64,000 nt of DNA from Gammaproteobacteria bacterium (GCA_965237805.1 OZ250153.1:1568001-1632000), one strand, 5' to 3'; counted from the stretch's first letter, positions 23,862 through 51,333 are shown. Notes: generated by a model from the sequence alone, not told the origin. Made by a program: numbers and translations.

Positions 23862-26800
23862 CTAGTTCGCCAAGAATTGGCTGATCGCCGCTGCTACCGC
23901 CGCCGTATCGCGTCCGGCCAGTGATGCGCCGGAGCCGCCGAGCAGCTCCGGCGGCGCGCCGCTCAGCTGAGCCAACACCAACAGCAGATCGTCGCGGTCT
24001 TGGTTGCCGTCGCCGTTGACATCCAGTGCGCTGTCGGCGAGCAGGGAGCGGCTCAGCGCCAGCACGGTGGCGGGGTTGGCGCTGTCTGGCAGCGCGATGT
24101 TGTATACCATATCTACCGCCTCAAAGCCGCTCAGCATACGCAGTGCGATGACAAAGTCATCGGCGTCCCAAGCATCGTTCATATTGGGGGTCAGCGGTGC
24201 GGCCTGCACCTGTTGCAATAGCCGATGCGCGTTGAGCCGCCGCCCGCTGGCCACATACTGCTGTGCGATGGGTGCGCCGACGCCGATCTCGTAGAGTCGC
24301 AGGGCGGGCGTTTGGGCCTCGTTGTCGAAATTTCCCGGCAGGCTGAGGCTGAACACCAAGCGCAGGCCAGCGCTCAGCTGGCCGCTGGGGATGGCGCCAG
24401 TCAGCTGGCGTGATATCGCGGTGGTCGTGCTGATCGTCGTTGTGCTGAGCACGGTTTCATTGCCGCCGCTATCCAAGAGCGAAATGACCAGCCCATCGGC
24501 GATGGGAGCCGCTAATGGCCAGCCTGAGAACACGACGGTTACGCCAAACTGCGCCGCGCTGAGCCCGGACAGATCGAAGGGGGTGGAGACCAGTCGCAGG
24601 GTGCTGCTGCTGTGGTTGCCGCCAGCGGGGGCCAGCTGCCAGAAATAGTGCTTGCGTCCTCCCGCTGGCGGCAAGTCGCTGGCGCTGGCGATGTGCCAGC
24701 CAATCGCATCACTGCCCAGATCGCTCAGTGCGGCATCCCACGCCCCCGCATCGCTGCGCATATTGTCGTAGAAAGCATCGCCCACTTGCGGCAGGTAGTA
24801 GTCGCTACTGCCCGTGACCGTCGCCGCCAAGCTGGCGACACCATCGGCGCTCTGTAGCAAGCGGTGGCGCAGCTCGGCCGCCGCCATCGTCGGGCGCAGG
24901 CTCAGTGCTAGTGCGGCGGCACCAGCCACTTGCGGGGCGGCCATTGAGGTGCCGGTCCTGAGCTCGATAGCCACGGCGCTGGTAGCAGCGGTGGCCGCAC
25001 CAAATTTGATAAATTGGATAAAGATATCGTCGGCACTATCTGTGTGACCGAAGATTCCCAGCTGCGCCCCCGTGGTGAAAAATGTCGAGGGGACGGTCAA
25101 ATACAAATTTATAAAGTTGCCTTTCTCCCACCAATTGAACACATCGTCCATCAGAATGATAGAAGCGTCTCCAAAATCGGCGGCTATGGAGTTGGCACCG
25201 GAGCGGGTCAGGCCGGAGTTGCTGTCCCCATCAGTGTCTGCGCTGAGCACGATAGTGAGCTCGTCATCGCTGTTGAACTCGAGGCGTCGCATAAAGAAGT
25301 GCAGTGCCACATGCTCTTCACCGACAAATTGGCTGAGATCAAAAGTCGGGCTGTGCAGATAGAAAGTGCCGGTGCTGGTCTTGCTGAGATTTCTGCCGTC
25401 GAAGGTGGTGATTGCATCGAAACCCTGATGTTCCCAGCCATTCAGCGAGCTGATGCTGCCGATATCCGCCGCGGCACTCAGCGCTGGATTTTGCCGTTCC
25501 AAACTGAGGATCAAGCTGCCGGGCGCGGCGATTGGCACGGCGCTGCTGCCGAAACTGCTGCTGCCGGCGAGCTGGTCTCTGAAGTTGCTGTTAGCGACCG
25601 CCAGCACATTGCGCAGTGGCTCCACCAGCGGGTAATTGCTGCCGTCGCCGTAGCTGGCGAGATAAGCCGCATCGCCCAACAGGCTGACATTGCTAGCGCT
25701 GTTGCCGGCGGAGGTGACGAATAGCACACCGCGCTGCTCCAGCGCAGCGATGGCATCGTACAGCGCCTGGCTGTAGCTGCCGCCGCCCCAGCTATTGTTG
25801 ATCACGCGCAACGGGACCCCGCTGTCGACCATTGCCGCCGCATAGTTCAGGCAGGCTATCGCATCGCTGGTGAAGCCTCTGTTGACGGTGATGAAGCGCA
25901 GTATCATCAGGCTGAGCCGATGGTTGACGCCGACCACGCTCTTTTGATTGTCGCCGATGGCACCGGCGATGCCCGCCACATGGCTGCCGTGGCCGTCATC
26001 GTCCCACGGCGTGCCGCTGGCGGCGGCGCTGCGGCGAGCGTTGGTGCCAACGCAGTCCGCGCCGTGCACATCGTCCACATAGCCGTTGCCGTCGTTGTCC
26101 ACCCCGTCGTAGCTATTGTCCAACGGGTTGACCCACAGATTGGCGCGCAGCTCCTCGTGATCCAGCTGCGCGCCGCTGTCGAGTACGGCCATCACCACCG
26201 AGCTGCTACCGGTGCTGATAGCCCAAGCCTCCACGCTATCTATATCGGCAGCTGCGACGGTTAGACCAGCGATTGCGGCACCGATGGAGCTGCTGCCGTC
26301 AGAGTTTTGGGTGACTATGATTGGGATCGATTGACCGGTGTTGTTGTGTCCCCAGAGGTAGCGGAAGTGGGCATCGTCAGGACTTGCATGGTGCTGGACG
26401 ATATAGTCCGGCTCGGCGTACTCCACCAGCCCGGCACGCTCCAGCACACGCGCCATCTCCGCTGCGTTGTGCCCCGCTGGCAGTCGCAGCACCGTCAGTT
26501 CGGTCGCCCCGTGCAGCTGGTTCAAAATGCCGATGCCGAAGCGCTGGTACAGCTCCTCAGCCCGCGCCTGCGCCCCGCTCGCGCCACCGGCAAAGCGCGC
26601 CAGCAACACGCCGGGGCGGTGTGCGGCTTGGTCGTTGATGGCGTGCTGCCGCGTGGCGGTCATACGCATCGGGATGGCCTCCCCACGTGGTGTCGGTGTC
26701 ACCACTGCCGCCGCCCGCCCGCTCGCCGCCGCGGCTGGCCGCGGCTGGCCGGTGTCGTGGCTGGTGCTTTGAGCTTGGGGCTCGGGGGCGGGCAACGGCG

Positions 26801-26876
26801 CTCGCCATGCCACCACCGCAGCGATGACGAGGCCGACCAGCACGAACAGTGCCGCCAGTCGCCACTGCCCGCTCAT
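23862..26876 (-). CDS. Secreted or membrane-anchored S8 subtilisin-like serine protease with two inserted domains and C-terminal tandem dockerin/EF-hand-like modules
   Basis: N-terminal hydrophobic segment; prodomain (VEYAEPDY); triad VLDSG / GHGSHVAG / GTSMAAPQVAG; oxyanion SAGN; NNSWGG; C-terminal NMNDAWDADDFVIALRML and DVNGDGNQDRDDLLLVL. Confidence 0.92.
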   Translation of the reverse strand: MSGQWRLAALFVLVGLVIAAVVAWRAPLPAPEPQAQSTSHDTGQPRPAAAASGRAAAVVTPTPRGEAIPMRMTATRQHAINDQAAHRPGVLLARFAGGASGAQARAEELYQRFGIGILNQLHGATELTVLRLPAGHNAAEMARVLERAGLVEYAEPDYIVQHHASPDDAHFRYLWGHNNTGQSIPIIVTQNSDGSSSIGAAIAGLTVAAADIDSVEAWAISTGSSSVVMAVLDSGAQLDHEELRANLWVNPLDNSYDGVDNDGNGYVDDVHGADCVGTNARRSAAASGTPWDDDGHGSHVAGIAGAIGDNQKSVVGVNHRLSLMILRFITVNRGFTSDAIACLNYAAAMVDSGVPLRVINNSWGGGSYSQALYDAIAALEQRGVLFVTSAGNSASNVSLLGDAAYLASYGDGSNYPLVEPLRNVLAVANSNFRDQLAGSSSFGSSAVPIAAPGSLILSLERQNPALSAAADIGSISSLNGWEHQGFDAITTFDGRNLSKTSTGTFYLHSPTFDLSQFVGEEHVALHFFMRRLEFNSDDELTIVLSADTDGDSNSGLTRSGANSIAADFGDASIILMDDVFNWWEKGNFINLYLTVPSTFFTTGAQLGIFGHTDSADDIFIQFIKFGAATAATSAVAIELRTGTSMAAPQVAGAAALALSLRPTMAAAELRHRLLQSADGVASLAATVTGSSDYYLPQVGDAFYDNMRSDAGAWDAALSDLGSDAIGWHIASASDLPPAGGRKHYFWQLAPAGGNHSSSTLRLVSTPFDLSGLSAAQFGVTVVFSGWPLAAPIADGLVISLLDSGGNETVLSTTTISTTTAISRQLTGAIPSGQLSAGLRLVFSLSLPGNFDNEAQTPALRLYEIGVGAPIAQQYVASGRRLNAHRLLQQVQAAPLTPNMNDAWDADDFVIALRMLSGFEAVDMVYNIALPDSANPATVLALSRSLLADSALDVNGDGNQDRDDLLLVLAQLSGAPPELLGGSGASLAGRDTAAVAAAISQFLAN

Positions 26877-27709
26877 GTCGTCGTCGAGGCTCGCTGCGAG
26901 TCGGGTCGATCGGTGCCGTAGACGGATTGCAGTAGCGGCAGCAGCTGGCTGTAGCAGGCCGGTGCGCCGCAGACGATCGCATCGATCCCCAGCGGCTCAT
27001 CGCTTCCCCACTGCCCGCGGATCAGTCCGCCAGCCTCCTGCACCAGCAAGGCACCGGCGGCCATATCCCAAGTTTTGAGCCCTACATCCCACATCGCGTC
27101 CAGCCGTCCGGCCGCCACATAGGCCAAGTCCAGTGCCGCCGAGCCACTGCGCCTCAGGGTCGCGCCGCGCTCGCCAGCGCGCAGCATGCAGCGTGCAGTT
27201 TCCTCGCTGTGATCGGCGCTGCGCTCACTGTCCAGCGAGCAGCTGCTGATCAGCGACGCGGCCAAGCCCTGCTGTTCGCTGACCCGGATGCGGCGACCAT
27301 CGAGCATTGCGCCGCCGCCGCGGCTAGCGCTGAATTCTTCATCCCGCATCACATCGAGTACGACCGCATGCTCTGTCTGGCCGTGGTGTAAACAGGCGAT
27401 GGAGACGGCAAAATGGGGTAGCCCGTGCACAAAGTTGCCAGTGCCGTCCAGCGGGTCGATGACCCACTGCCAGGCAGTATCCTTGGGCAAAGAGCCGCGC
27501 TCCTCGCTGAGGATACTGTGTTGTGGGTAGCTCTCTTGCAGCTGCTCGATGATCTGATGCTCGGCCTCTATATCCACTGAGGTGACATAGTCGGCGGGGG
27601 ATTTCTCGTAGACCGCCACCCGATCCAAATTGCGGAAAGAGCGCATGATCATGCGGGCGGCGTTGCGGGCGATGCGGCGTGCTATGACGAGTGTCGGTGC
27701 TACAGCCAT
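26873..27709 (-). CDS. suhB: Inositol monophosphatase / Nus factor SuhB
   Basis: DYVTSVD, ILSEE, WVIDPLDGT.NF.HG.PHFAVSIA, RRSGSAALDLAYVAAGRLD, WDMAAG. The stop overlaps the subtilase ATG (ATGA). Confidence 0.95.
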   Translation of the reverse strand: MAVAPTLVIARRIARNAARMIMRSFRNLDRVAVYEKSPADYVTSVDIEAEHQIIEQLQESYPQHSILSEERGSLPKDTAWQWVIDPLDGTGNFVHGLPHFAVSIACLHHGQTEHAVVLDVMRDEEFSASRGGGAMLDGRRIRVSEQQGLAASLISSCSLDSERSADHSEETARCMLRAGERGATLRRSGSAALDLAYVAAGRLDAMWDVGLKTWDMAAGALLVQEAGGLIRGQWGSDEPLGIDAIVCGAPACYSQLLPLLQSVYGTDRPDSQRASTTT

Positions 27710-29020: not shown

Positions 29021-32000
29021 ATGAGATTGAAGCAGTTTGCTAAGCCGAAGTGGGTGGGGGTCAGTTCGCATTCGCAACTGAGTGCGGCTTCCCCGCGACG
29101 CGCCCGCGTCGGTCTGAGTTTGTTGTGGCGCTGCTGTTCGTCACCAAAGCGAGTGTTTTTCAGCGGCCTGTTATTGCTGGCAGCGCTGTATTCCGCTGTG
29201 GTTGCGCCCATCGCCGATGCCGCGACGACCGCGTCCTATCAAGGCGTGGTGTTGCCCTATGCGGATACGCCGGACTTCGAGGGAGCGGACGGGCTCATTG
29301 GCCAGACTTCCAATGCCCAGTCCGTGACGCTGCCCAGCGGCACCGCTGCCAGCTACCAAGTGGCCGAGAACAGCAGCTTTTCGCTGACCATTGGCTTTCG
29401 CATGACAGCCATCTCCCCCGAACCCACGACGATGACTGGCGAGATCAGATCTCTGACTTTCGAGCTGGTCTATTCCTCCGACAGCCGCTTCGTGTTTGAG
29501 GGCCATGAAATCCTTGACAGCGCTGCCGTCAATACTGGTGATAGCTGGGAGGACTACAGTGATCTCACTGTCTCTGAAGAGACTGGTAACGGCGGTAGCA
29601 CTAGCGGGATTACCATCTCGGCCGCGGTGACTGGCAGTGACGAGACCAGCATCCTCTGCGGTAAATTTTGCCTGTGGCCTGCTTTGGTGCGGCTCAACTT
29701 CTCCGTCGGTGCGCTCGACAGTGCGTCTGAGGAGCTGGATTTTGATTTACAGAGCCGCGTGCTATCTGTCGTCCACACCTACGGCGACTCCCCCGAGATC
29801 AGCTATCTCAGCAGCACCGCTGCCTTGGTGGTCACGCGGCCGACCGTTCTGCGTCTGCGCGATCTGTCCGACCCCTTGCTGGTGTCTGCTGAGGAGTTTG
29901 TTCGCGTCGAGGCAGCACTGGACAGCGACGGGGATGCACTCTACGGCGCCCCCAGCATTGGCGACTTTACTGTCTCTTTGACTGCGACATCGACCGTTTC
30001 ACTTGCTCCCAGCACCGCCAGCGGCGACAGCTTCAGCTTGGAGGTGCTGACAGCGACTGACGGCGAGCAGGCTTTGTTGACATTCACCGACAACGATCGT
30101 GCTCTCAGCGCCACGGCGACGGTGACACTGGATGTGGTGGCGACGGCGCTGACGGTATCGGCGCCGTCGACGGTGACATCGGGCGTGATCTTTGCGCTGA
30201 CGGTGACGGGGATGGACAGCAATAGCAATGAGGACACGGCCTACAGCCGGTCGGCGGCGACGACGGTGACGGCTTCGGCGGGGACGCTGGTGGTGGAGTC
30301 GAGCACGGCGAGCAGTATTGATCTGCGTTTGAGCGAGGTGACGGACGGCGATACGGTAACGCTGACGGTGACGGATGGCAGCGTGTCGGGCACGGCTGAT
30401 GTGGCGGTGAATGTGGTGGCGACAGCGCTGACGGTGAGTGCTTCACCGGATCCGGTGGTGTCGGGTCAGTCCTTCACGCTGACGGTGACGGGAGTCGATG
30501 CTGATGGCGCGACGGACACGGGCTACAGCCGGTCGGCGGCGACGACGGTGACGGCTTCGGTGGGGACGCTGGTGGAGGAGTCGAGTACAGCGACCAGTAT
30601 TGATCTGCGTTTGAGCGAGGTGGCGGACGGCGCTGATGTGACGCTGACGGTGACGGATGGCAGCGTGTCGGGCACGGCAGCTGTGACGGTGAATGTGGTG
30701 GCGACAGCGCTGACGGTGAGTGCTTCACCGGATCCGGTGGTGTCGGGTCAGTCCTTCACGCTGACGGTGACGGGAGTCGATGCCGATGGCGCGACGGACA
30801 CGGGCTACAGCCGGTCGGCGGCGACGACGGTGACGGCTTCGGTGGGGACGCTGGTGGAGGAGTCGAGTACAGCGACCAGTATTGATCTGCGTTTGAGCGA
30901 GGTGGCGGACGGCGCTGATGTGACGCTGACGGTGACGGATGGCAGCGTGTCGGGCACGGCAGCTGTGACGGTGAATGTGGTGGCGACAGCGCTGACGGTG
31001 AGTGCTTCACCGGATCCGGTGGTGTCGGGTCAGTCCTTCACGCTGACGGTGACGGGAGTCGATGCTGATGGCGCGACGGACACGGGCTACAGCCGGTCGG
31101 CGGCGACGACGGTGACGGCTTCGGTGGGGACGCTGGTGGAGGAGTCGAGTACAGCGACCAGTATTGATCTGCGTTTGAGCGAGGTGGCGGACGGCGCTGA
31201 TGTGACGCTGACGGTGACGGATGGCAGCGTGTCGGGCACGGCAGCTGTGACGGTGAATGTGGTGGCGACAGCGCTGACGGTGAGTGCTTCACCGGATCCG
31301 GTGGTGTCGGGTCAGTCCTTCACGCTGACGGTGACGGGAGTCGATGCCGATGGCGCGACGGACACGGGCTACAGCCGGTCGGCGGCGACGACGGTGACGG
31401 CTTCGGTGGGGACGCTGGTGGAGGAGTCGAGCACGGCGACCAGTATTGATCTGCGTTTGAGCGAGGTGGCGGACGGCGCTGATGTGACGCTGACGGATGG
31501 CAGTGAGCTGTGACGGTGAATGTGGTGGCGACAGCGCTGACGGTGAGTGCTTCACCGGATCCGGTGGTGTCGGGTCACGGACGGTGACGGGAGTCGATGC
31601 CGATGGCGCGACGGACACGGGCTACAGCCGGTCGGCGTGGCTTCGGTGGGGACGCTGGTGGAGGAGTCGAGCACGGCGACCAGTATTGATCTGCGTTTGA
31701 GCGAGGTGGCGGACGGCGCTGATGTGACGCTGACGGTGACAGATGGCAGCGTGTCGGGCACGGCAGCTGTGACGGTGAATGTGGTGGCGACAGCGCTGAC
31801 GGTGAGTGCTTCACCGGATCCGGTGGTGTCGGGTCAGTCCTTCACGCTGACGGTGACGGGAGTCGATGCCGATGGCGCGACGGACACGGGCTACAGCCGG
31901 TCGGCGGCGACGACGGTGACGGCTTCGGTGGGGACGCTGGTGGAGGAGTCGAGTACAGCGACCAGTATTGATCTGCGTTTGAGCGAGGTGGCGGACGCGC

Positions 32001-41000: not shown

Positions 41001-44000
41001 TGAGACAGTGACGCTGACGGTGGCGGCCGGTGGCTTGTCGGGCACGGCAGCTGTGGTGGTAGATGTGGTGGCGACGGTGCTGACGGTCGCGGCACCGGAG
41101 ACGGTGGTGGCGGGCGCGAGCTTTGCGCTGACGGTGATGGGAGTCGATGCCGATAGCGCGACGGACACGGACTACAGCCTGTCGTCGACGGCCACGGTGA
41201 CGGCTGCGGCGGGGACGCTATTGCCCGTGACGCGCACGCCGACAGGCAACGGCTTCGGCGGTCTGAGTCTGAGCGTGGTGAGCGACGGCGATGTGGTGAC
41301 GCTGACGGTGACGGATGGCGTGCTGTCGTCTGCAGGCACGGCTGATGTGGAGGTGGATGTGGTGGCGACGGAGCTGACGGTCGCGGCACCGGCGATGGTG
41401 GTGGCGGGCGCGAGCTTTGCGCTGACGGTGACGGGAGTCGATGCCGATAGCGCGACGGACACGGACTACAGCCTGTCGTCGACGGCCACGGTGACGGCTT
41501 CGGCGGGGACGCTATTGCCCGTGACGCGCACGCCGACAGGCAACGGCTTCGTCGGTCTGAGTCTGAGCGTGGTGAGCGATGGCGATGTGGTGACGCTGAC
41601 GGTGACGGATGGCGTGCTGTCGTCTGCAGACACGGCTGATGTGGAGGTGGATGTGGTGGCGACGGTGCTGGCGCTGAGCGCCTCAGTGGAGCCGGTGTTA
41701 TCTGATCGCAGCTTCCTGCTGACGGTTGCTGGGGTGGATGCGGATGGCGCGACTGATACGGGCTACAGCCTGTCGGCGACGGCCACGGTGACGGCGTCGG
41801 CGGGGACGCTGGTAGAGGCTTCGCGCGCGGGGCAGGTCATTGGCCTGAGTTTGAGTGGCTTGGCCGCTGGCTCGACGGCACTGCTGACGGTGATCGACGA
41901 TGGCTTGGAGGGTCAGCTCGAGCTGACAGTGGCGGCGGTGGCGGTGGTCTCCTTGGATGTGGCTGCACCTGAGACGGTGGTGTCTGGGGCGGCGTTCACG
42001 GTGACAGTGACGGCCCGTGATGCCAATGCTGTGGTGATTTCGGATGCGGATCTGTCGGCGGCGACGGCGGCTGTGTCGGTCGGGACGCTGTCGGAGTTCT
42101 CGCTGAGCGGGAACAACACACTGAGTATGGAGTTGCGAGCTGTGCCGGACGACACGACATCGACGCTGACGGTGAGTTTGGGCTCAGTCAGCAGTGCGGA
42201 CACGGTGACGGTGAATGTGGTGGCGACGGCGCTGTCGGTAGCGGCACCGGCGACGGTGGTGTCGGGTCAGCTCTTCATGCTGACGGTGACGGGAGTCGAT
42301 GCGGATGACGCGACGGACACGGGCCACAGCCTGTCGACGGCGACGGTGTCGGCTGCGCCGGGGGCGATCGCGGATCTGAGTCAGAGGGGCAACGAGTTGA
42401 GTGTGAGTGTGAGCGGGGCGACGGATGCTGAGACAGTGACGCTGACGGTGGCGGCCGGTGGCTTGTCGGGCACGGCAGCTGTGGTGGTAGATGTGGTGGC
42501 GACGGTGCTGAGGCTGGAGCCCTCGCAGGATCCGGTCAATGGGGGCTCGCCCTTCACGCTGACGGTGACGGGAGTCGATGCGGATGACGCGACGGACACG
42601 GACTACAGCCTGTCGGCGACGGCCACGGTGACGGCTTCGGCGGGGACGCTGGTGGAGGATTCGCGGACGACGGCGGGCTTTGAGCTGAATTTGAGCGGGG
42701 TGGGCGATGGCACGCTAGTGACGCTGACGGTGACGGATGGCGCTTTGTCGAACACGCTGGATGTGACGGTGCAGGCGGCGGCGGCATCCTTGCTGGTGGC
42801 TGCACCGGCGACGGTGGTGTCTGGCGCTGACTTCACGGTGCAGTTGACGGCTTTGGACGCTGGGGACAACGTCATTCCAAACCACAATCTATCGGCGGCG
42901 CAGGCCACCGCCTCGGTGGGGAATCTGATCTTGGTCTCGCAGACGACGGACACGCTGACTCTACAGTTGCGCGGTGTGTCGGATAGTGCATCGGCGGTTT
43001 TGACAGTGATGGAGGGGTCCGCCAGCGGCACTGACACGGTGGCGGTGGATGTGGTGGCGACGGCGCTGTCGGTCTCGGCACCGGAGACGGTGGTGTCGGG
43101 CGCGAGCTTTGCGCTGACGGTGACGGGAGTCGATGCGGATGACGCGACGGACACGGGCTACAGCCTGTCGACGGCGACGGTGTCGGCTGCGCCGGGGGCG
43201 ATCGCGGATCTGAGTCAGATGGGCAACGAGTTGAGTGTGAGTGTGAGCGGGGTGACGGACGGTGCGACAGCGACGCTGACGGTGGCGGCCGATGGCTTGT
43301 CGGGTACGGCAGCTGTGGCGGTGAATGTGGAGGCGACGGCGCTGACGGTCTCGGCACCAGAGACGGTGGTGTCGGGCACGTCCTTCACGCTGACGGTGAC
43401 GGGAGTCAATTCAGCTGACGAGACGGACACGGACTACAGCCTGTCGAATGTGACGGTGACGGCCTCGACAGGGATGCTGACGACGGTGCAGACCAGCACC
43501 GGCTTCGAGCTGAGACTGAGCGGGTTGGCGGACGGCACGATGGTGACGCTGACGGCGACGGATAGCGTGCTGTCGTCTGCAGACACGGCTGATGTGGTGG
43601 TGAATGTGGAGGCGACGGCGCTGACGGTCTCGGCACCGGAGACGGTGGTGTCGGGCACGTCCTTCACGCTGACGGTGACGGGAGTCAATTCAGCTGACGA
43701 GACGGACACGGACTACAGCCTGTCGAATGTGACGGTGACGGCCTCGACAGGGATGCTGACGACGGTGCAGACCAGCACCGGCTTCGAGCTGAGACTGAGC
43801 GGGTTGGCGGACGGCACGATGGTGACGCTGACGGCGACGGATAGCGTGCTGTCGTCTGCAGACACGGCTGCTGTGGCGGTGAATGTGGTGGCGACGGCGC
43901 TGACGGTATCGGCACCGGCGACGGTGGTGTCGGGTGCGAGCTTTGCGCTGACGGTGATGGGAGTCGATGCAGCTGGCGCGACGGACACGGGCTACAGCCT

Positions 44001-47000
44001 GTCGAATGTGACGGTGACGGCCTCGTCGGGGACGATCTCGGGTCAAAGTCAGACCAGCACCGGCTTCGAGCTGAGTCTGAGCGGGGTGGCGGACGGCACG
44101 ATGGTGACACTGACGGCGACGGATAGCGTGCTGTCGTCTGCAGACACGGTGGCTGTGGCGGTGAATGTGGTGGCGACGGCGCTGACGGTATCGGCACTGG
44201 CGACGGTGGTGTCGGGCGCGAGCTTTGCGCTGACGGTGACGGGAGTCGATGCAGCTGGCGCGACGGACACGGGCTACAGCCTGTCGAATGTGACGGTGAC
44301 GGCCTCGACCGGGACGCTGACGACGGCGCAGACCAGCACTGGCTTCGAGCTGAGTCTGAGCGGGTTGGCTGACGGCACGATGGTGACACTGACGGCGACG
44401 GATAGCGTGCTGTCGTCTGCAGACACGGCTGATGTGACGGTGGATGTGGTGGCGACGGCGCTGACGGTGTCGGCACCGGCGACGGTGGTGTCGGGTGCGA
44501 GCTTTGCGCTGACAGTGACGGGAGTCGATGCAGCTGGCGCGACGGACACGGGCTACAGCCTGTCGAATGTGACGGTGACGGCCTCGTCGGGGACGATTTC
44601 GGGTCAAAGTCAGACCAGCACTGGCTTCGAGCTGAGTCTGAGCGGGGTGGCGGACGGCACGATGGTGACACTGACAGCGACGGATAGCGTGCTGTCGTCT
44701 GCAGACACGGTGGCTGTGGCGGTGAATGTGGTGGCGACGGCGCTGACGGTATCGGCACTGGCGACGGTGGTGTCGGGCGCGAGCTTTGCGCTGACGGTGA
44801 CGGGAGTCGATGCAGCTGGCGCGACGGACACGGGCTACAGCCTGTCGAATGTGACGGTGACGGCCTCGACCGGGACGCTGACGACGGCGCAGACCAGCAC
44901 TGGCTTCGAGCTGAGTCTGAGCGGGTTGGCTGACGGCACGATGGTGACACTGACGGCGACGGATAGTGTGCTGTCGTCTGCAGACACGGCTGATGTGACG
45001 GTGGATGTGGTGGCGACGGCGCTGACGGTGTCGGCACCGGCGACGGTGATGTCGGGTGCGAGCTTTGCGCTGACGGTGACGGGCGTCGATGCAGCTGGCG
45101 CGACGGACACGGGCTACAGCCTGTCGAATGTGACGGTGACGGCCTCGTCGGGGACGATTTCGGGTCAAAGTCAGACCAGCACCGGCTTCGAGCTGAGACT
45201 GAGCGGGTTGGCGGACGGCACGATGGTGACACTGACGGCGACGGATAGCGTGCTGTCGTCTGCAGACACGGCTGATGTGACGGTGGATGTGGTGGCGACG
45301 GCGCTGACGGTATCGGCACCGGCGACGGTGGTGTCGGGCGCGAGCTTTGCGCTGACGGTGACGGGCGTCGATGCAGCTGGCGCGACGGACACGGGCTACA
45401 GCCTGTCGAATGTGACGGTGACGGCCTCGTCGGGGACGATCTCGGGTCAAAGTCAGACCAGCACCGGCTTCGAGCTGAGTCTGAGCGGGGTGGCGGACGG
45501 CACGATGGTGACACTGACGGCGACGGATAGCGTGCTGTCGTCTGCAGACACGGTGGATGTGGCGGTGAATGTGGTGGCGACGGCGCTGACGGTCTCGGCA
45601 CCGGCGACGGTGGTGTCGGGTGCGAGCTTTGCGCTGACGGTGACGGGAGTCGATGCAGCTGGCGCGACTGACACGGGCTACAGCCTGTCGAATGTGACGG
45701 TGACGGCCTCGACCGGGATGCTGACGACGGCGCAGACCAGCACTGGCTTCGAGCTGAGTCTGAGCGGGTTGGCTGACGGCACGATGGTGACACTGACGGC
45801 GACGGATAGTGTGCTGTCGTCTGCAGACACGGCAGCTGTGACGGTGGATGTGGTGGCGACGGCGCTGACGGTATCGGCACCGGCGACGGTGGTGTCGGGT
45901 GCGAGCTTTGCGCTGACGGTGACGGGCGTCGATGCAGCTGGCGCGACGGACACGGGCTACAGCCTGTCGAATGTGACGGTGACGGCCTCGTCGGGGACGA
46001 TTTCGGGTCAAAGTCAGACCAGCACCGGCTTCGAGCTGAGTCTGAGCGGGGTGACTGATGGCACGATGGTGACACTGACGGCGACGGATAGCGTGCTGTC
46101 GGCTGCAGACACGGTGGATGTGGCGGTGAATGTGGTGGCGACGGCGCTGACGGTATCGGCACCGGCGACGGTGGTGTCGGGCGCGAGCTTTGCGCTGACG
46201 GTGACGGGCGTCGATGCAGCTGGCGCGACGGACACGGGCTACAGCCTGTCGAATGTGACGGTGACGGCCTCGACCGGGACGCTGACGACGGCGCAGACCA
46301 GCACTGGCTTCGAGCTGAGTCTGAGCGGGTTGGCTGACGGCACGATGGTGACACTGACGGCGACGGATAGTGTGCTGTCGTCTGCAGACACGGCTGATGT
46401 GACGGTGGATGTGGTGGCGACGGCGCTGACGGTCTCGGCACCGGCGACGGTGGTGTCGGGTGCGAGCTTTGCGCTGACAGTGACGGGAGTCGATGCAGCT
46501 GGCGCGACGGACACGGGCTACAGCCTGTCGAATGTGACGGTGACGGCCTCGTCGGGGACGATTTCGGGTCAAAGTCAGACCAGCACCGGCTTCGAGCTGA
46601 GTCTGAGCGGGTTGGCGGACGGCACGATGGTGACACTGACGGCGACGGATAGCGTGCTGTCGTCTGCAGACACGGCTGATGTGACGGTGGATGTGGTGGC
46701 GACGGCGCTGACGGTGTCGGCACCGGCGACGGTGGTGTCGGGTGCGAGCTTTGCGCTGACAGTGACGGGAGTCGATGCAGCTGGCGCGACGGACACGGGC
46801 TACAGCCTGTCGAATGTGACGGTGACGGCCTCGTCGGGGACGATTTCGGGTCAAAGTCAGACCAGCACCGGCTTCGAGCTGAGTCTGAGCGGGTTGGCGG
46901 ACGGCACGATGGTGACACTGACGGCGACGGATAGCGTGCTGTCGTCTGCAGACACGGCTGATGTGACGGTGGATGTGGTGGCGACGGCGCTGACGGTGTC

Positions 47001-50000
47001 GGCACCGGCGACGGTGGTGTCGGGTGCGAGCTTTGCGCTGACAGTGACGGGCGTCGATGCAGCTGGCGCGACGGACACGGGCTACAGCCTGTCGAATGTG
47101 ACGGTGACGGCCTCGTCGGGGACGATCTCGGGTCAAAGTCAGACCAGCACCGGCTTCGAGCTGAGTCTGAGCGGGGTGACGGACGGCACGATGGTGACGC
47201 TGACGGCGACGGATAGTGTGCTGTCGTCCGCAGACACGGCTGATGTGGTGGTGAATGTGGAGGCGACGGCGCTGACGGTCTCGGCACCGGCGACGGTGGT
47301 GTCGGGCACGTCCTTCACGCTGACGGTGACGGGAGTCAATTCAGCTGACGAGACGGACACGGACTACAGCCTGTCGAATGTGACGGTGACGGCCTCGACC
47401 GGGATGCTGACGACGGCGCAGACCAGCACCGGCTTCGAGCTGAGACTGAGCGGGTTGGCGGACGGCACGATGGTGACGCTGACGGCGACGGATAGCGTGC
47501 TGTCGTCTGCAGACACGGCAGCTGTGACGGTGGATGTGGTGGCGACAGCGCTGACGGTCTCGGCACCGGCGACGGTGACGTCGGGCGTGATCTTTGCGCT
47601 GACGGTGACGGGCGTCGATGCAGCTGGCGAGACGGACACGGACTACAGCCTGTCGAATGTGACGGTGACGGCCTCGACAGGGATGCTGACGACGGCGCAG
47701 ACAAGCACCGGCTTCGAGCTGAGACTGAGCGGGTTGGCGGACGGCACGATGGTGACGCTGACGGCGACGGATAGCGTGCTGGTGTCTACAGACATGGTGG
47801 ATGTGACGGTGCAGGCGGCGGCGGCATCCTTGCTGGTGGATGCACCGGCGACGGTGGTGTCTGGCGCTGACTTCACGGTGCAGTTGACGGCTTTGGACGC
47901 TGGGGACAACGTCATTCCAAGCCATGATCTATCAGCGGCGACGGCCACCGTCTCGGTGGGGACTCTGAGCTTGGTCTCGCGGACGGCGGACACGCTGACT
48001 CTACAGTTGCGCGGTGTGTCAGATAGTGAATCGGCGATTTTGACAGTGATGGAGGGTGACGCCATCGGCACTGACACGGTGACGGTGAATGTGGTCGCCA
48101 CGGCGCTGTCACTGGTGAGCAATGTGGCAGAGATAACGGCAGGGGCGCAGACAGGCGTCACCGTCACTGGCATCGACGCTGATGGCGCGATGGACACGGG
48201 CTACAGCCTGTCATTGGCACCCCAGATCACGGCCTCGATGGGCGTGACGGTCACTGGTATTACGGTATTCCCCACCGGTAGTGGTAGCCACCTCGTGCAA
48301 TTCACCCTGTCGGGTGCGCCAGATGGCAGCGAATTGTTGCTGACGATGACGGCTACCCCTCAGAATGGTGGGCTGGTCGGCAGTACATCCGTGACTTTGA
48401 ATGTGGTGGCGACGGCGCTGAGGCTATCGGCACCGGCGACGGTGGTGTCGGGCACGACAGCCACGCTGACGGTGACGGGAGTCGATGCAGCTGGCGCGAC
48501 GGACACGGGCTACAGCCTGTCGAATGTGACGGTGACGGCCTCGACCGGGACGCTGACGACGGCGCAGACAAGCACTGGCTTCGAGCTGCGTCTGAGCGGC
48601 TTGGCGGATGGCACGATGGTGACGCTGACGGCGACGGATAGTGTGCTGCTGTCTGCAGACACGGTGGCTGTGACGGTGGATGTGGTGGCGACGGCGCTGA
48701 CGGTATCGGCACCGGCGACGGTGGTGTCGGGCCAGCTCTTCACGCTGACGGTGACGGGAGTCGATGCCGATGGCGCGACGGACACGGACTACAGCCTGTC
48801 GACGGCCACGGTGACGGCTTCGGCGGGGGCGCTGGTGGAAGAGTCGAGCACGGCGAGCAGTATTGATCTGCGTTTGAGCGAGGTGTCCGACGGCGCTGAT
48901 GTGACGCTGACGGTGACGGATGGCAGCGTGTCGGGCACGGCTGAGGTGGCGGTGGATGTGGTGGCGACGGCGCTGTCGCTGAGTGCCTCAGTGGATCCGG
49001 TAGTTTCCGGCCAGCTCTTCACGCTGACGGTGACGGGAGTCGATGCCGATGGCGCGACGGACACGGGCCACAGCCTGTCGTCGACGGCAACGGTGACGGT
49101 TTCGGCGGGGACGATCGCGGATTTCAGTCAGACGGGCAACGAGTTGAGCTTGAGTCTGAGCGGTGTGACGGACGGTGCGACAGCGACGCTGACGGTGGCG
49201 GCCGATGGCTTGTCGGGCACGGTGGCTGTGACGGTAGATGTGGTGGCGACGGCGCTGAGGCTGAGCGCCTCAGTGGAGCCGGTGTTATCTGATCGCAGCT
49301 TCCTGCTGACGGTTGCTGGGGTCGATGCGGATGACGCGACGGACACGGGCTACAGCCTGTCGGCGTCGGCCACGGTGACGGCGTCGGCGGGGACGCTGGT
49401 AGAGGCTTCGCGCGCGGGGCAGGTCATTGGCCTGAGTTTGAGTGGCTTGGCCGCTGGCTCGACGGCAACGGTGACGGTGATCGACGATGGCTTGGAGGGT
49501 GAGCTCGAGCTGACAGTGGCGGCGGTGGCGGTGGTCTCCTTGGATGTGGCTGCACCTGAGACGGTGGTGTCTGGGGCGGCGTTCACGGTGACAGTGACGG
49601 CCCGCGATGCCAATGCTGTGGTGATTTCGGATGCGGATCTGTCGGCGGTGACGGCGGCTGTGTCGGTCGGGACGCTGTCGGCGTTCTCGCTGAGCGGGAA
49701 CAACACACTGAGTATGGAGTTGCGAGCTGTGCCGGACGACACGACATCGACGCTGACGGTGAGTTTGGGCTCAGTCAGCAGTGCGGACACGGTGACGGTG
49801 GATGTGGTGGCGACAGCGCTGACGGTAGCGGCACCGGCGACAGTGGTGTCGGGCCAGTCCTTCACGCTGACGGTGACGGGAGTCGATGCGGATGGCGCGA
49901 CGGACACGGGCTACAGCCTGTCGACGGCCACGGTGACGGCTTCGGCGGGGACGCTGGTGGAGGAGTCGAGCACGGCGACCAGTATTGATCTGCGTTTGAG

Positions 50001-51333
50001 CGGGGTGTCCGACGGCGCTGTGGTGACGGTGACGGTGACGGCCGATGGCTTGTCGGGCACGGCTGATGTGGCGGTGGATGTGGTGGCGACGGCGCTGTCG
50101 GTCTCGGCACCGGCGACGGTGGTGTCGGGCGCGAGCTTTGCGCTGACGGTGACGGGAGTCGATGCGAATGACGCGACGGACACGGGCTACAGCCTGTCGA
50201 CGGCGGCGGTGTCGGCTTCGCCGGGGACGATCGCGGATCTGAGTCAGACGGGCAACGAGTTGAGTGTGAGTGTGAGCGGGGTGACGGACGGTGCGACAGC
50301 GACGCTGACGGTGGCGGCCGATGGCTTGTCGGGCACGGCAGTTGTGGCGGTGGATGTGGTGGCGACGGCGCTGTCGGTGAGCGCCTGCACCGGAGCCGGT
50401 GGTGTCGGGTCAGTCTCTTCACGCTGACGGTGACGGGAGTCGATGCGGATGACGCGACGGACACGGGCTACAGCCTGTCGACGGCGGCAACGGTGACGGC
50501 TTCGGCGGGGACGATCGCGGATCAGAGTCAGACGGGCGACGAGTTGAGCTTGAGTCTGAGCGGGGTGACGGACGGCGCTGTGGCGACGCTGACGGTGGCG
50601 GCCGATGGCTTGTCGGGCACGGTTGATGTGACGGTAGATGTGGTGGCGACGGCACTGAGGCTGGTGGCCTCGCAGGATCCGGTCAATAGGGACACATCCT
50701 TCACGCTGACGGTGACGGCAGTCGATGCAGCTGGCGCGACGGACACGGGCTACAGCCTGTCGGCGTCGGCCACGGTGACGGCTTCGGCGGGGACGCTGGT
50801 GGAGGATTCGCGCGCGGCGACCAGTATTGAGCTGCGTTTGAGCGGGGTGTCCGACGGCGATGTGGTGACGCTGACGCTGACGGATGGCGTGCTGTCGAGC
50901 ACGCTGGCTGTGACGGTAACTGCGCGCAATCAGCTCGATATCGATCTCGACGGACGATGTCGACCAAACGGATGCCTTGATGATGTTCCGCACGCTGGGC
51001 TTTACGGTGTCCTTCCGCACCTTGATCAAGGACGGCACCTTGTCGGGTTTCGTGGTGGCTGGCAGCCCGGCCCTGCTCGACGAAGAGCTCAATATCATCG
51101 AGCGTATTGAGGCTCTTGAGGCCAGCTCCAACAGTGTCTTGGACATTGATCTCGACGGCGATGTCGACCAAACGGATGCCTTGATGATGTTCCGCACACT
51201 GGGCTTTACGGCGTCCTTCCGCACCTTGATCAAGGACGGCACCTTTTCTGGTGTCGTGGTGGCTGGCATTCCGGCCCTGATCGACGAAGAGCTCAATATC
51301 ATCGTGCGCATCGAGCAGCGCGCCGGCCTCTGA
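29021..51333 (+). CDS. Giant (~7,400 aa) secreted repetitive surface protein or adhesin: signal peptide, cohesin-like domain, about 75 Ig-like repeats, tandem dockerin-like C-terminus; split by indels
   Basis: ORFs 29021-31513, 31547-32008, 32005-50427, 50430-51110 and 50977-51333 encode one continuous repeat series. Signal-like FFSGLLLLAALYSAVVAPIADA-A (the start may be GTG 29153). Each break can be identified by comparison with sibling repeats. Confidence 0.85.
30140..50925 (+). repeat. Intragenic tandem array of ~279/282-bp units in several sequence classes, with higher-order periodicity
   Basis: Eleven near-identical 282-bp 'SASPDPVVSGQSF' units span about 30440-33495. A 1407-bp five-unit block recurs at about 33496, 34903 and 36310. 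A 561-bp two-unit period runs across about 43900-45600. Confidence 0.97.
50937..51315 (+). repeat. Direct duplication (68-aa period) encoding two dockerin/EF-hand-like modules DIDLDGDVDQTDALMMFRTLG
   Basis: Copies start at 50937 and 51142. Copy 1 carries one extra A at about 50954 relative to copy 2. Confidence 0.9.

What the first reader, a model, noticed from the sequence alone, without database searches (positions are those of the whole stretch)
23862..51333. Candidate non-cellulosomal cohesin-dockerin system: giant stalk protein plus dockerin-tagged subtilase
Seen in the sequence: two secreted proteins about 2 kb apart both end in a tandem pair of ~60-68-aa modules opening with a Ca2+-loop-like D-x-D/N-x-D-G-x-x-D-x-x-D motif plus a hydrophobic helix. 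The giant protein has DIDLDGDVDQTDALMMFRTLG twice. The subtilase has NMNDAWDADDFVIALRMLSG and DVNGDGNQDRDDLLLVLAQLSG. The giant protein also has a cohesin-like domain at its N-terminus. Established: duplicated Ca-loop/helix dockerins bind cohesins to build cellulosomes in Clostridia/Ruminococcus, and non-cellulosomal examples are poorly characterised. Inference: this may be a proteobacterial scaffold in which a ~75-domain stalk carries a protease at its cohesin tip, polymerises head-to-tail through its own cohesin and dockerin, or is anchored by a shared C-terminal sorting module.
Basis: partly seen in the sequence, partly recalled or inferred. Interest (0 to 1): 0.88.

Follow-up and report, generated by a model that had tools for sequence, protein, structure and literature searches.

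The report
Giant stalk protein with dockerin-like tail
A small-genome gammaproteobacterium encodes a roughly 7,400-residue repeat protein with a possibly cohesin-like head and two copies of a rare calcium-loop tail module that it shares with two other secreted proteins but not with the neighbouring protease.

Summary
The sequence features are real, but the proposed link between the two proteins is not.

**Giant gene (29021-51333, +)**
- It has a leader, a 217-aa N-domain, 74 tandem 282-bp repeats and two 68-aa C-terminal modules.
- The assembly breaks it with seven frame changes. Read-derived contigs contradict two of the three that could be checked.

**C-terminal module**
- It is a rare family: 11 real hits among 1.84 billion representative proteins.
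- It sits at or just under Pfam's Dockerin_1 cut-off.
- A profile of it finds only dockerins among solved sequences, all non-significant (E 0.069-1.3).
- In this genome it recurs on a 390-aa "mini" protein and on a CARDB/M23-peptidase protein.

**Subtilase (23862-26876, -)**
- Its tail shares only a 22-25-aa Ca-loop plus helix with the module. A module HMM finds no hit at E<=10, and hhalign gives 4-16% probability.

**N-domain**
- It has no Pfam Cohesin hit, and its AlphaFold model is weak (pLDDT 48.5).
- That model's 11 best structural matches among 48,161 chains are all cellulosomal cohesin chains (Z 6.2-7.0).

Best reading: a lineage-specific dockerin-like attachment tag on a fibrillar surface protein. 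The partner is unproven. This is a new variant of a known kind, of moderate interest.

The parts
23862..26876 (-). Subtilase gene, 1004 aa: hydrophobic N-terminal leader, fervidolysin-like prodomain, S8 catalytic domain with an insert, an unassigned region of about 190 aa, and a 108-aa tail.
   Evidence: ORF. Pfam Peptidase_S8 E 4e-34, 118.7 bits; Fervidolysin_NPro-like 21.5 bits. The Asp, His and Ser motifs VLDSG, HGSHVAG and GTSMAAP are read in the translation.
23865..24188 (-). Subtilase C-terminal tail: one degenerate and one canonical Ca-loop plus helix, 53 aa apart.
   Evidence: Sequence. Pfam Dockerin_1 is below cut-off (15.9 bits, E 0.016, second segment only). Conserved in the only close relative, P0004. 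Found once per genome in G000 and G001.
29021..51333 (+). Giant surface-protein gene, 22.3 kb, about 7,400 aa if read through. The assembly splits it into five ORFs.
   Evidence: ORFs at 29021-31513, 31547-32008, 32005-50427, 50430-51110 and 50977-51333. Frame maps.
29021..29221 (+). N-terminal leader with a hydrophobic core and an A-x-A site (…LLLLAALYSAVVAPIADA|ATT). Read as a Sec signal peptide.
   Evidence: Translation. The same layout is seen in the G001 orthologue and in the remnant copy. No signal-peptide predictor was run.
29210..29860 (+). N-domain, 217 aa, all-beta, possibly a cohesin-like beta-sandwich. It holds a conserved ILCGxFCxWP motif.
   Evidence: No Pfam family. Relatives only in G001, at 43% identity. 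AF2 pLDDT 48.5 with 12 strands. The first 11 VIA-align rows are cellulosomal cohesin chains, Z 6.2-7.0. The top three named Atlas clusters carry Cohesin in 13-25% of members, scores 0.87-0.88.
29861..30131 (+). Divergent spacer or first Ig-like unit before the regular repeat array.
   Evidence: Translation. It lies outside the TRF array.
30132..50917 (+). 74 tandem 282-bp (94-aa) repeats of several subtypes, read as Ig-like beta domains forming a stalk.
   Evidence: TRF: period 282, 74.0 copies, 78% matches. GC skew is 0.22-0.28 over the array. Only weak Pfam hints: BatD E 7.9e-4, Big_3_2 E 0.3, Big_3_3 E 1.1e-4 in relative P0130. No solved-structure sequence match.
31490..31640 (+). One repeat unit with three frame changes and short missing stretches.
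   Evidence: Three-frame translation. DNA context.
31990..32000 (+). Frame change where one base is missing compared with neighbouring units (GGACGCGCTG against GGACGGCGCTG).
50385..50420 (+). Two +1 frame changes, at about 50390 and at 50416.
   Evidence: At 50416 one contig in each of runs X1 and X2 lacks one base (depth 683.3 of 1028.1 and 424.1 of 512.2). This is repeat sequence, so the contig may come from another unit.
50934..51138 (+). C-terminal module 1: Ca loop, then three helices. An extra base at 50954 breaks it in the assembly.
   Evidence: Module HMM E 1.8e-21. The extra base shows against the three other copies. The only covering contig in X1 and in X2 lacks that base (28.1 of 28.1; 18.7 of 18.7).
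51139..51330 (+). C-terminal module 2, intact. It ends three residues before the stop codon.
   Evidence: Module HMM E 2.6e-26. Pfam Dockerin_1 22.0 bits over both modules, cut-off 22.9. The AF2 model of the near-identical mini-protein pair has three helices per module, pLDDT 73.4.

Best explanation
The window encodes a Sec-exported fibrillar surface protein of about 7,400 residues in an uncultured, small-genome (1.73 Mb) diderm gammaproteobacterium.

**Anatomy**
- An orphan beta-sandwich head that may be cohesin-like.
- A stalk of 74 Ig-like 94-aa repeats. At about 4 nm per domain (a recalled figure) this gives roughly 0.3 um; this is an inference.
- At the extreme C-terminus, two copies of a rare 66-68-aa module.

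**The module**
- Each module opens with a dockerin-type 12-residue Ca loop (D1, D3, N/D/S5, G6, V8, D/N9, D12) that runs into a helix. A short helix follows, then a conserved VAG(F/I)P turn and a long helix.
- I read it as a lineage-specific, stretched dockerin variant: a Ca-dependent attachment tag that directs secreted proteins to a common receptor.
- The same tag is carried by a 390-aa mini protein and by a CARDB x13 / peptidase M23 x2 protein in this genome. In relatives it is carried by CARDB proteins, Ig-repeat proteins and an HExxH protein.

**Shown and not shown**
- Shown: the anatomy, the rarity of the module, its sharing among proteins and its motif-level likeness to dockerins.
- Inferred: Ca binding, the attachment role and export.
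- Not established: the receptor. The head domain is one candidate.

**The subtilase**
- It is an ordinary secreted S8 protease with its own tail, conserved in its orthologues.
- That tail has one canonical dockerin-type loop plus helix but is not the same module.

**The frame breaks**
- Most or all of the breaks in the giant gene are probably consensus errors of the assembly.
For: **Anatomy.** ORFs and translations; 74 repeats.

**Module rarity.** phmmer of the 136-aa pair against 1.84 billion representatives gave 14 proteins at E<=0.001. I judge 11 real (P0123-P0131, P0133, P0134), by reading the 14 sequences. Nine of these 11 carry the module at the C-terminal end, one carries it just after the leader (P0131), and one is a 68-aa fragment.

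**Sharing within the genome.** The module HMM hit three ORFs: giant (2 modules), mini (2) and the CARDB/M23 protein (1), at E 1e-21 to 1e-26. The next hit had E 0.61.

**Distribution.** 3 of 41 related genomes have the module: G000, G001 (9 matches at E<=0.01) and G003 (weak). The N-domain is in 2 of 41, G000 and G001.

**Dockerin likeness.**
- Pfam Dockerin_1 scores: 22.0 (giant), 23.0-23.2 (mini), 23.4 (P0131), 23.7 (P0133), 21.6 (P0134), 18.8 (P0126). The cut-off is 22.9.
- The family profile against 177,635 solved sequences listed 4 at E<=10, all dockerins: 1ohz_B E 0.069, 4uyp_B, 4uyq_B, 2ccl_B.
- AF2 gives three helices per module.

**Cargo.** CARDB x13 and Peptidase_M23 x2 in P0129, which is this genome's own ORF. 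An HEFAHH motif is read in P0131.

**Head.** The first 11 of 50 VIA-align rows are cellulosomal cohesin chains (Z 7.0-6.2, 116-128 residues aligned, rmsd 3.0-4.3 A). Six more cohesin entries lie by rank 25. The three best named Atlas clusters carry Cohesin.

**Diderm host with export machinery.** Four secretin matches and one TolC-type ORF (its two OEP halves). SecD and SecF are in the window. SecD's best named matches are Gammaproteobacteria at 54-56% identity.

**Assembly errors.** Contigs lack one base at 50954 and at 50416. purL is also split by frame changes.

**A precedent for the architecture.** In Chlorobium chlorochromatii, Cag_2037 has an N-terminal cohesin plus BIg repeats, and Cag_2038 has BIg repeats plus a C-terminal dockerin (passages of bioRxiv 10.64898/2026.03.19.712371).
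Against: **Dockerin likeness is thin.**
- The Dockerin_1 scores straddle the cut-off and cover only the loop plus helix.
- The two loops are 68 aa apart, not about 33 as in classical dockerins.
- All four dockerin rows are non-significant (E 0.069-1.3).
- Fold searches with the tail model found no dockerin. Foldseek's best E was 2.2. The best VIA-align Z was 4.5, to generic three-helix bundles.
- Four of the five AF2 models had pLDDT 47-54.
- A test for an internal second F-hand within a module was no better than a reversed control (E 0.28 against 0.23).

**The head is poorly determined.**
- The head model has pLDDT 48.5, built from 3 sequences.
- Z 7.0 is within the range that the tool calls common.
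- Foldseek ranked concanavalin-type lectins first, at TM 0.25.
- Pfam Cohesin has no match in the head or anywhere in the genome at E<=1.

**The repeats.** They have no curated family, so 'Ig-like' is an inference.

**The frame changes.**
- Five of the seven were not checked against reads.
- The contigs that contradict the other two could come from paralogous or repeated copies. 32 records in X1 and 11 in X2 fit two places.
Confidence: 0.55

Rival explanations
1. This is a working cohesin-dockerin system in which the head of the giant protein binds the subtilase tail (protease at the tip) and/or its own C-terminal pair (head-to-tail polymer).
For: - The head model's best structural matches are cohesins.
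- Both tails contain a dockerin-type loop plus helix.
- Head and module co-occur in G000 and G001 only.
- The genes lie 2.1 kb apart.
- An analogous pair is proposed in Chl. chlorochromatii.
Against: - The subtilase tail is not homologous to the giant's module beyond 22-25 aa.
- Its Dockerin_1 score is 15.9 bits, and only its second segment is canonical.
- The two genes are divergent and separated by housekeeping genes.
- Co-occurrence rests on two sister genomes, which are not independent.
- No Pfam Cohesin match.
- The head model is low-confidence.
Confidence: 0.15
2. The module is a cell-envelope anchor or sorting tag whose receptor is not the giant's head. Candidate receptors are lipopolysaccharide, an outer-membrane protein, or the large SPOR-ending proteins encoded next to the mini gene and next to the remnant copy. 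The head would then be the distal adhesive tip.
For: - Nine of 11 family members carry the module at the very C-terminus, ending in a conserved G-N, G-D or G-L.
- Module proteins outnumber head proteins: 3 to 1 in G000, and 9 module matches to 2 head matches in G001.
- The mini gene is followed within about 110 bp by a 1,885-aa protein with a C-terminal SPOR domain. A paralogue follows the remnant copy.
- The N-terminal regions of those proteins share short sequence signatures with the head: a 23-aa hhalign match (E 0.02), and a similar L-x-C-x-x-C-x-x-P motif seen by eye.
Against: - P0131 carries the pair near its N-terminus, so a strictly C-terminal sorting signal is unlikely.
- The head HMM does not detect the SPOR-ending proteins at E<=10, and hhalign probability is 2.3%.
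- No receptor has been tested.
Confidence: 0.25
3. The giant gene is a decaying pseudogene in an eroding small genome. The frame changes are real and no full-length protein is made.
For: - Seven frame changes, and one repeat unit with several short deletions.
- A truncated, frameshifted second copy of the head gene lies at G000:277905-278703.
- purL is split and the rmlD-like ORF lacks its usual N-terminal start.
- The genome is only 1.73 Mb.
Against: - Contigs from the reads lack the extra base at 50954 and at 50416.
- A 6,140-codon open frame persists between breaks, which would be unexpected in an old pseudogene.
- Splits in purL fit indel errors of the assembly as well as they fit decay.
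Confidence: 0.2
4. The Ca-loop motifs are incidental EF-hand-like stabilising sites of unrelated extracellular domains, with no shared targeting role.
For: - Such loops are widespread. Pfam Dockerin_1 'rings' in 8 of 14 control genomes.
- The subtilase tail and the giant's module are not homologous.
Against: - The whole 64-position module, not just the loop, is conserved across proteins with different cargo, and is 92% identical between the giant and the mini protein.
- The motif count is 4 observed against 0.1 expected.
Confidence: 0.05

Closest known systems
Type I dockerin (Pfam PF00404), e.g. the Clostridium thermocellum xylanase dockerin in 1ohz_B
   Same: - The same 12-residue Ca loop with Asp at position 12, followed by a helix, present twice in tandem and placed at the C-terminus of secreted proteins, including enzymes.
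- Borderline Pfam hits.
- Dockerins are the only solved sequences that the family profile finds.
   Different: - The loops are 68 aa apart instead of about 33.
- Each loop belongs to its own 66-aa, three-helix unit with a conserved VAG(F/I)P turn that dockerins lack.
- One family member has a single unit (P0129).
- No structural match to dockerins was found.
- The host is a gammaproteobacterium with no cellulosome context.
Cohesin modules (Pfam PF00963), e.g. 3ul4_A, 1ohz_A and the non-cellulosomal Archaeoglobus fulgidus cohesin 2xdh_A
   Same: The head model aligns best to cohesins: 116-128 of about 140 residues, Z 6.2-7.0 for the first 11 rows, and 2xdh_A at Z 5.8.
   Different: - No sequence-level match to Pfam Cohesin or to any solved chain.
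- The domain is about 60 residues longer than a cohesin.
- The model is low-confidence.
- It occurs as a single N-terminal copy, not as a scaffoldin array.
Cag_2037 / Cag_2038 of Chlorobium chlorochromatii (bioRxiv 10.64898/2026.03.19.712371; passages read)
   Same: A non-cellulosomal case in a diderm. There, an N-terminal cohesin sits on a BIg-repeat protein, and a C-terminal dockerin sits on a neighbouring BIg-repeat protein. The authors propose that these tether surface proteins.
   Different: - There the two modules sit on two proteins and are recognised by InterPro. The cohesin protein has an RTX/T1SS C-terminus.
- Here both ends are on one protein with a Sec-type leader, neither end reaches a curated family cleanly, and there are 74 repeats rather than 9 or 18.
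Giant RTX-type repeat adhesins exported by type I secretion (LapA, SiiE and MpIBP type; recalled, not looked up here)
   Same: Very long stalks of tandem Ig-like repeats with Ca-binding C-terminal regions in Gram-negative bacteria.
   Different: - There is no RTX nonapeptide (HemolysinCabind) hit.
- An N-terminal hydrophobic leader is present.
- The C-terminal Ca sites are EF/F-hand loops, not beta-roll repeats.
Non-cellulosomal cohesin- and dockerin-like modules surveyed by Peer et al. 2009 (FEMS Microbiol Lett 291:1). Only its reference entry was seen. The paper is not held, so its content is recalled.
   Same: Dockerin-like modules outside cellulolytic clostridia, often on proteases and of unknown function (recalled).
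   Different: The module here is a distinct, much rarer sequence family with a stretched layout.

Membership tests
Dockerin (Pfam PF00404) - giant protein tail | Pfam Dockerin_1 score at or above the gathering cut-off of 22.9 bits. | tested here: inconclusive
   - Window copy: 22.0 bits, E 1.9e-4; 19.1 bits in the genome scan.
- The 92%-identical pair of the mini protein: 23.0-23.2 bits.
- Relatives: 18.8-23.7 bits. P0129 and P0130 are not listed at E<=0.01.
Dockerin (Pfam PF00404) - giant protein tail | Two 12-residue Ca loops of the form D-x-[DN]-x-[DN]-G-x-[IV]-[DN]-x-x-D, each followed by a helix. | tested here: met
   DIDLDGDVDQTD plus ALMMFRTLG is read twice. The first copy needs the extra base at 50954 removed. 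The loop columns are conserved in 20 aligned modules. Ca binding itself was not tested.
Dockerin (Pfam PF00404) - giant protein tail | Both segments lie within one three-helix domain of about 60-70 aa, about 30-35 aa apart. | tested here: not met
   The loops are 68 aa (204 bp) apart. Each has its own three helices in the AF2 model. P0129 has a single unit.
Dockerin (Pfam PF00404) - giant protein tail | Fold like solved dockerins. | tested here: inconclusive
   Foldseek's best E was 2.2. The best VIA-align Z was 4.5, to generic three-helix bundles. The model was of the tandem pair, at pLDDT 73.4.
Dockerin (Pfam PF00404) - giant protein tail | Ca-dependent binding to a cohesin. | not testable with these tools
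   Needs pull-down or ITC with recombinant domains.
Dockerin (Pfam PF00404) - subtilase tail | Pfam cut-off reached and two canonical loop-helix segments. | tested here: not met
   15.9 bits and 16.4 bits, second segment only. The first segment, NMNDAWDADDFV, lacks Gly at position 6 and an acidic residue at position 12.
Giant-type C-terminal module family (defined here) | Match to the 64-position HMM built from 20 modules. | tested here: not met
   This row concerns the subtilase: it is not listed at E<=10 with all filters off, and hhalign probability is 15.8% and 4.2%. The giant, the mini protein and P0129 match at E 1e-21 to 1e-26.
Cohesin (Pfam PF00963) - giant protein N-domain | Match to the Pfam Cohesin HMM. 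| tested here: not met
   No Cohesin row at E<=1 or E<=10. There were 0 candidates in the whole genome at E<=1.
Cohesin (Pfam PF00963) - giant protein N-domain | Flattened beta-sandwich (jelly-roll) fold like solved cohesins. | tested here: inconclusive
   The first 11 VIA-align rows are cellulosomal cohesin chains (Z 7.0-6.2), and 17 of the 50 rows in all. But the model has pLDDT 48.5, and Foldseek ranks lectins first at TM 0.25.
Cohesin (Pfam PF00963) - giant protein N-domain | Binds a dockerin. | not testable with these tools
   Needs a binding experiment.
Subtilase, peptidase family S8 | S8 catalytic domain with the Asp, His and Ser motifs. | tested here: met
   Peptidase_S8 at 118.7 bits against a cut-off of 21.8. 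VLDSG, HGSHVAG and GTSMAAP are read.
RTX / type I secreted giant adhesins | C-terminal RTX nonapeptide repeats and no N-terminal signal peptide. | tested here: not met
   No HemolysinCabind or other RTX family in the C-terminal pieces. A hydrophobic leader with an A-x-A site is present (no predictor was run).

The most novel reading that the evidence does not exclude
A self-contained cohesin-dockerin-like system in a small-genome gammaproteobacterium, built from two unannotated module families. A single stalk protein of about 0.3 um would carry the receptor (a divergent cohesin) at its head and a new 'stretched' double dockerin at its tail. It could then polymerise head-to-tail, or display the module-tagged M23 peptidase/CARDB protein and the mini protein far from the cell.
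Probability: 0.2. Interest if true: 0.75.

Novelty: new variant of a known kind. Interest (0 to 1): 0.5.

Why it matters
- Cohesin-dockerin pairs are among the strongest known protein-protein links, but outside cellulosomes their roles are largely unknown.
- This lineage offers a compact case: a rare module shared by three secreted proteins in one genome and found at nine or more places in its sister genome, plus a candidate receptor domain on a giant stalk.
- If the pairing holds, it gives a new, sequence-divergent binding pair. It would also show how an uncultured bacterium with a 1.7-Mb genome builds long surface structures or displays peptidases.
- If it does not hold, the module is still an unannotated anchoring or sorting tag that deserves a family model.
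- The case also shows that the frame breaks in such repeat genes need read-level checks before they are called pseudogenes.

Tried and rejected
**Binding prediction.** Complex prediction with the N-domain (A2) against the module pair (A1) returned 'no answer', score 0.00 against a mark of 0.32. This is neither support nor evidence against binding.

**Fold searches with the tail model.** Foldseek pdb found nothing at E<=0.001. VIA-align wide gave only generic helical bundles, with no dockerin among its 50 rows.

**Fold search with the head model.** Foldseek listed concanavalin-type lectins (E 3.5e-4) at TM 0.25 and rmsd 16 A. I disregard this.

**Sequence searches against solved structures.**
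- Head profile: 0 hits at E<=10.
- Single tail sequence: 1 irrelevant hit.
- Subtilase tail: 4 non-significant hits, two of them chains of one dockerin, the better at E 0.62.
- Seven repeats: only antibody chains and one kinase subunit, non-significant.

**Family libraries.** NCBIfam had no family for the mini protein, the giant's pieces or the repeats.

**More head relatives.** The word-based search among longer proteins returned only the query itself. The head HMM against the genome's own six frames found only the remnant copy.

**Internal duplication.** Each module might be an internally duplicated F-hand pair, that is, one whole dockerin. hhalign of the first half against the second gave E 0.28, and the reversed control gave 0.23, so this is not supported.

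**SPOR-ending neighbours.** Their N-termini might be head paralogues. hhalign probability was 2.3% over 23 aa, so this is only a lead.

**Organism and collection searches.** The search for related loci in genome contigs with the tail found no relative.

**Reads.** Only 50300-51500 could be laid (one call allowed). The five frame changes upstream were not checked. Run X3 held next to none of the words.

**Closed or unavailable.**
- Peer et al. 2009 (PMC3035643) is not held.
- Supplementary files were not consulted. The supplements of the Chl. chlorochromatii preprint may hold the confidence figures of its cohesin-dockerin model.

**Not done.** So there is no fold of a single module, of the subtilase tail, of a repeat unit or of the SPOR-protein N-termini.

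Full report
**What is in the window**

The window is G000:C1:1568001-1632000 of a single-contig genome of 1,725,584 bases and 61.6% G+C. The finding covers two genes.

The first is a 1004-aa ORF on the - strand (23862-26876). It is a subtilase: Pfam Peptidase_S8 at E 4e-34 and 118.7 bits, plus a fervidolysin-type prodomain. The Asp, His and Ser motifs are readable in its translation.

The second is a + strand gene from 29021 to 51333. The assembly splits it into ORFs of 830, 153, 6140, 226 and 118 codons. Between the two genes lie an inositol-monophosphatase-like ORF and a methyltransferase-like ORF. The genes are therefore 2.1 kb apart, divergent, and not in one operon.

Upstream are guaB, guaA, a split purL, secD and secF. 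Downstream are an rmlD-like ORF and xseA. SecD's best named matches are Gammaproteobacteria at 54-56% identity. The genome has four secretin matches and one TolC-type ORF. So this is a diderm with standard export routes.

**Anatomy of the giant gene**

- Tandem Repeats Finder gives 74.0 copies of a 282-bp unit at 30132-50917. The repeat region has a marked G-over-C skew of 0.22-0.28.
- The repeats translate to 94-aa units rich in V, T, S, A and D, of several subtypes.
- They hit no Pfam or NCBIfam family and no solved sequence. The exceptions are weak hints: BatD E 7.9e-4, Big_3_2 E 0.3, and Big_3_3 E 1.1e-4 in relative P0130. 'Ig-like' is therefore my inference.
- Before the array lie a hydrophobic leader ending in A-D-A and a 217-aa N-domain.
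- After the array lie two 68-aa modules that reach the stop codon.

**Frame changes**

Three-frame maps show seven changes: three within one repeat unit (31490-31640), then about 31995, about 50390, 50416 and 50954.

I could lay contigs of two runs of one sample on 50300-51500 only.
- At 50954 the only covering contig lacks one base (depth 28.1 of 28.1 in X1, 18.7 of 18.7 in X2).
- At 50416 one contig per run lacks one base (683.3 of 1028.1 and 424.1 of 512.2).
- An alignment of the four loop copies in the genome shows that the window's first module has one extra base at exactly that spot.
- A 1.7-kb contig matches the flank without any difference, so the organism is in those runs.

Two caveats apply. 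The 50416 site is repeat sequence, and some records fit two places. Separately, purL, which is one gene in most Gammaproteobacteria (recalled), is also split by frame changes.

I conclude that at least some breaks are consensus errors. The gene is more likely intact than not, but five breaks remain unchecked.

**The C-terminal module**

*In this genome.*
- A strict motif scan of the genome's six frames found the loop plus helix in four ORFs, against 0.1 expected from shuffles.
- One of them is a 390-aa 'mini' protein at G000:264371-265627 (-). It has a leader, two of the same repeats, and an intact module pair 92% identical to the giant's.

*In public data.*
- An exhaustive phmmer of that pair against 1.84 billion representatives gave only 14 proteins at E<=0.001. 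I judge three of them spurious (FG-GAP, ankyrin and another repeat protein), from reading the 14 sequences.
- Of the 11 real ones, nine carry the module at the very C-terminus. These sit behind the same repeats or behind CARDB repeats.
- One (P0131, which has an HEFAHH motif) carries the pair just after its leader. One is a 68-aa fragment.

*HMM results.*
- I cut out 20 modules, aligned them and built an HMM.
- Against the genome's own six frames with all filters off, it hit the mini protein, the giant, and a 2,160-codon ORF that equals P0129 (CARDB x13, Peptidase_M23 x2, SH3). E-values were 1e-21 to 1e-26 per module, and nothing else scored below E 0.61.

*In relatives.*
- Among 41 related genomes the module is in G000, in the sister genome G001 (9 matches at E<=0.01) and weakly in G003. 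In G003 a 5,663-codon ORF ends in a similar double loop-helix arrangement.

**Is the module a dockerin?**

For:
- The loop fits the dockerin pattern, including Asp at position 12.
- Pfam Dockerin_1 gives 18.8-23.7 bits around its 22.9-bit cut-off.
- A profile of the family lists only four of 177,635 solved sequences at E<=10, all dockerins. None is significant, and only the loop and first helix turns align.

Against:
- The loops are 68 residues apart.
- Each loop heads its own unit of three helices in the AF2 model. The best model has pLDDT 73.4; the other four have 47-54.
- One family member has a single unit.
- Fold searches found no dockerin.
- My idea that each unit is itself a degenerate F-hand pair failed its control.

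I therefore call it a dockerin-like variant, not a member of the family.

**The subtilase tail**

- It aligns with the giant's tail only over 25 residues (BLASTP E 0.004).
- hhalign of the family against the tail of the subtilase and its one close relative, P0004 (56% identity), gives 15.8% and 4.2% probability over 22-25 columns.
- The module HMM does not list it at E<=10.
- Its Dockerin_1 score is 15.9 bits, for the second segment only.
- The tail occurs once each in G000 and G001, on the subtilase orthologue, with a weak match in G003.

The 'shared module' that links the two proteins in the finding is therefore not there. What they share is a common Ca-loop motif.

**The N-domain**

- It has no Pfam Cohesin match, and none exists anywhere in the genome at E<=1.
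- Relatives exist only in G001 (43% identity, contig ends after 984 codons), plus a fragment on another G001 contig. A frameshifted remnant lies at G000:277905-278703, downstream of a dksA-like gene. The G001 orthologue sits behind the same kind of gene.
- AF2 on three sequences gave an all-beta model of pLDDT 48.5.
- Foldseek's lectin hits have TM 0.25, and I disregard them.
- VIA-align against 48,161 representative chains put cellulosomal cohesin chains in the first 11 rows (Z 7.0 to 6.2, 116-128 residues aligned, rmsd 3.0-4.3 A). Ten of these name a cohesin or a cohesin-dockerin complex in their title. Rank 2, 3kcp_A, is titled only as interacting C. thermocellum multimodular components, and I count it from its size and aligned length. 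Six more cohesin entries lie by rank 25, including the non-cellulosomal A. fulgidus and C. perfringens cohesins.
- The tool warns that Z of 7 is common for a best match. What carries weight is that one fold family fills the top of the list.
- The protein-language-model Atlas independently gave, as its three best named clusters, clusters in which 13-25% of members carry Cohesin. Their scores of 0.87-0.88 are below the level the tool treats as more than a lead.

I put the chance that the head is a cohesin-type sandwich at roughly two in three.

**Mechanism**

The best-supported reading is as follows.
- The module is a Ca-dependent attachment tag, used by a small set of secreted proteins of this lineage: stalk proteins, CARDB proteins, an M23 peptidase and an HExxH protein.
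- The giant protein is a fibrillar surface protein carrying that tag at one end and a beta-sandwich head at the other.

Whether the head is the tag's receptor is open. Co-occurrence in two sister genomes is weak evidence.

A rival receptor is suggested by gene order. The mini gene is followed within about 110 bp by a 1,885-aa protein ending in a SPOR domain, and a 2,332-aa paralogue follows the remnant head gene. The N-termini of these proteins share only short signatures with the head.

The genome also holds a 2,516-aa cadherin-repeat protein with a dockerin-like stretch of canonical size: 21.6 bits by hmmscan, 32.8 bits summed in the genome scan.

**Comparison with known systems**

The closest described architecture is in Chlorobium chlorochromatii. 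There Cag_2037 (N-terminal cohesin, BIg repeats, RTX) and Cag_2038 (BIg repeats, C-terminal dockerin) are proposed to tether each other. I read passages of bioRxiv 10.64898/2026.03.19.712371.

Non-cellulosomal cohesin and dockerin modules were surveyed by Peer et al. 2009. I saw only its reference entry, and the paper is not held.

Against this background the finding is a new variant of a known kind. None turned up this module family or this lineage, but they were keyword searches of open-access text only.

**Verdict**

- The subtilase should be dropped from the proposed system.
- The real point of interest is the rare module family together with a possibly cohesin-like head on a protein of about 7,400 residues.
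- Interest 0.5. The bold reading, a self-contained divergent cohesin-dockerin pair, has a probability of about 0.2.

Noticed in passing
window 16805-20966 (+): purL (FGAM synthase) is split into ORFs of 669 and 654 codons, with a stop and at least one frame change at about 18814-19000. This is either an assembly indel error or gene decay.
   Followed up: partly
window 51335-52226 (+): The rmlD-like ORF starts at a TTG inside the usual Rossmann N-terminus. The upstream in-frame text (…SRAGGRLGKAL) looks like a degraded G-x-G-x-x-G region with no start codon.
   Followed up: partly
G000:C1:258523-265627 (-) (L031): The mini protein gene (two repeats plus an intact module pair) is followed within about 110 bp by a 1,885-aa protein. 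That protein has a hydrophobic segment near its end, a beta-barrel-like stretch (judged by eye) and a SPOR domain (E 8.5e-6).
   Followed up: partly
G000:C1:270564-279909 (-) (L032): A second, parallel locus holds a dksA-like gene, a frameshifted remnant of the head gene fused to one repeat, and then a 2,332-aa paralogue of the SPOR-ending protein. In G001 the intact head gene also follows a dksA-like gene.
   Followed up: partly
G000:C1:1007777-1015324 (-) (L002:4777-12324): A 2,516-aa cadherin-repeat protein (Cadherin E 1.5e-51) has a dockerin-like stretch of canonical size at residues 281-333.
   Followed up: partly
G000:C1:1248537-1255016 (-): The genome's own CARDB x13 / Peptidase_M23 x2 / SH3 protein (equal to P0129) ends in a single copy of the module.
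   Followed up: yes
G003:C1:761838-765116 (L017): A 5,663-codon ORF of a same-family genome ends in two loop-helix segments with long spacers. This resembles both the giant's module and the subtilase tail.
   Followed up: no
window 1806-3524 (+) and G000:C1:1560774-1563446 (+): A weak secretin ORF (28.6 bits) lies in the window. About 4.5 kb before the window starts there is an 891-codon ORF with a pilin-like N-terminus and a Dockerin_1-like stretch (23.5 bits summed).
   Followed up: no
protein P0103: One distant S8 peptidase in the database carries a precomputed Pfam Cohesin domain, so fusions of subtilase and cohesin exist elsewhere.
   Followed up: no
window 8088-10991 (+): A 967-aa, very hydrophobic ORF with no Pfam family lies in a stretch with AT skew of -0.395.
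   Followed up: no
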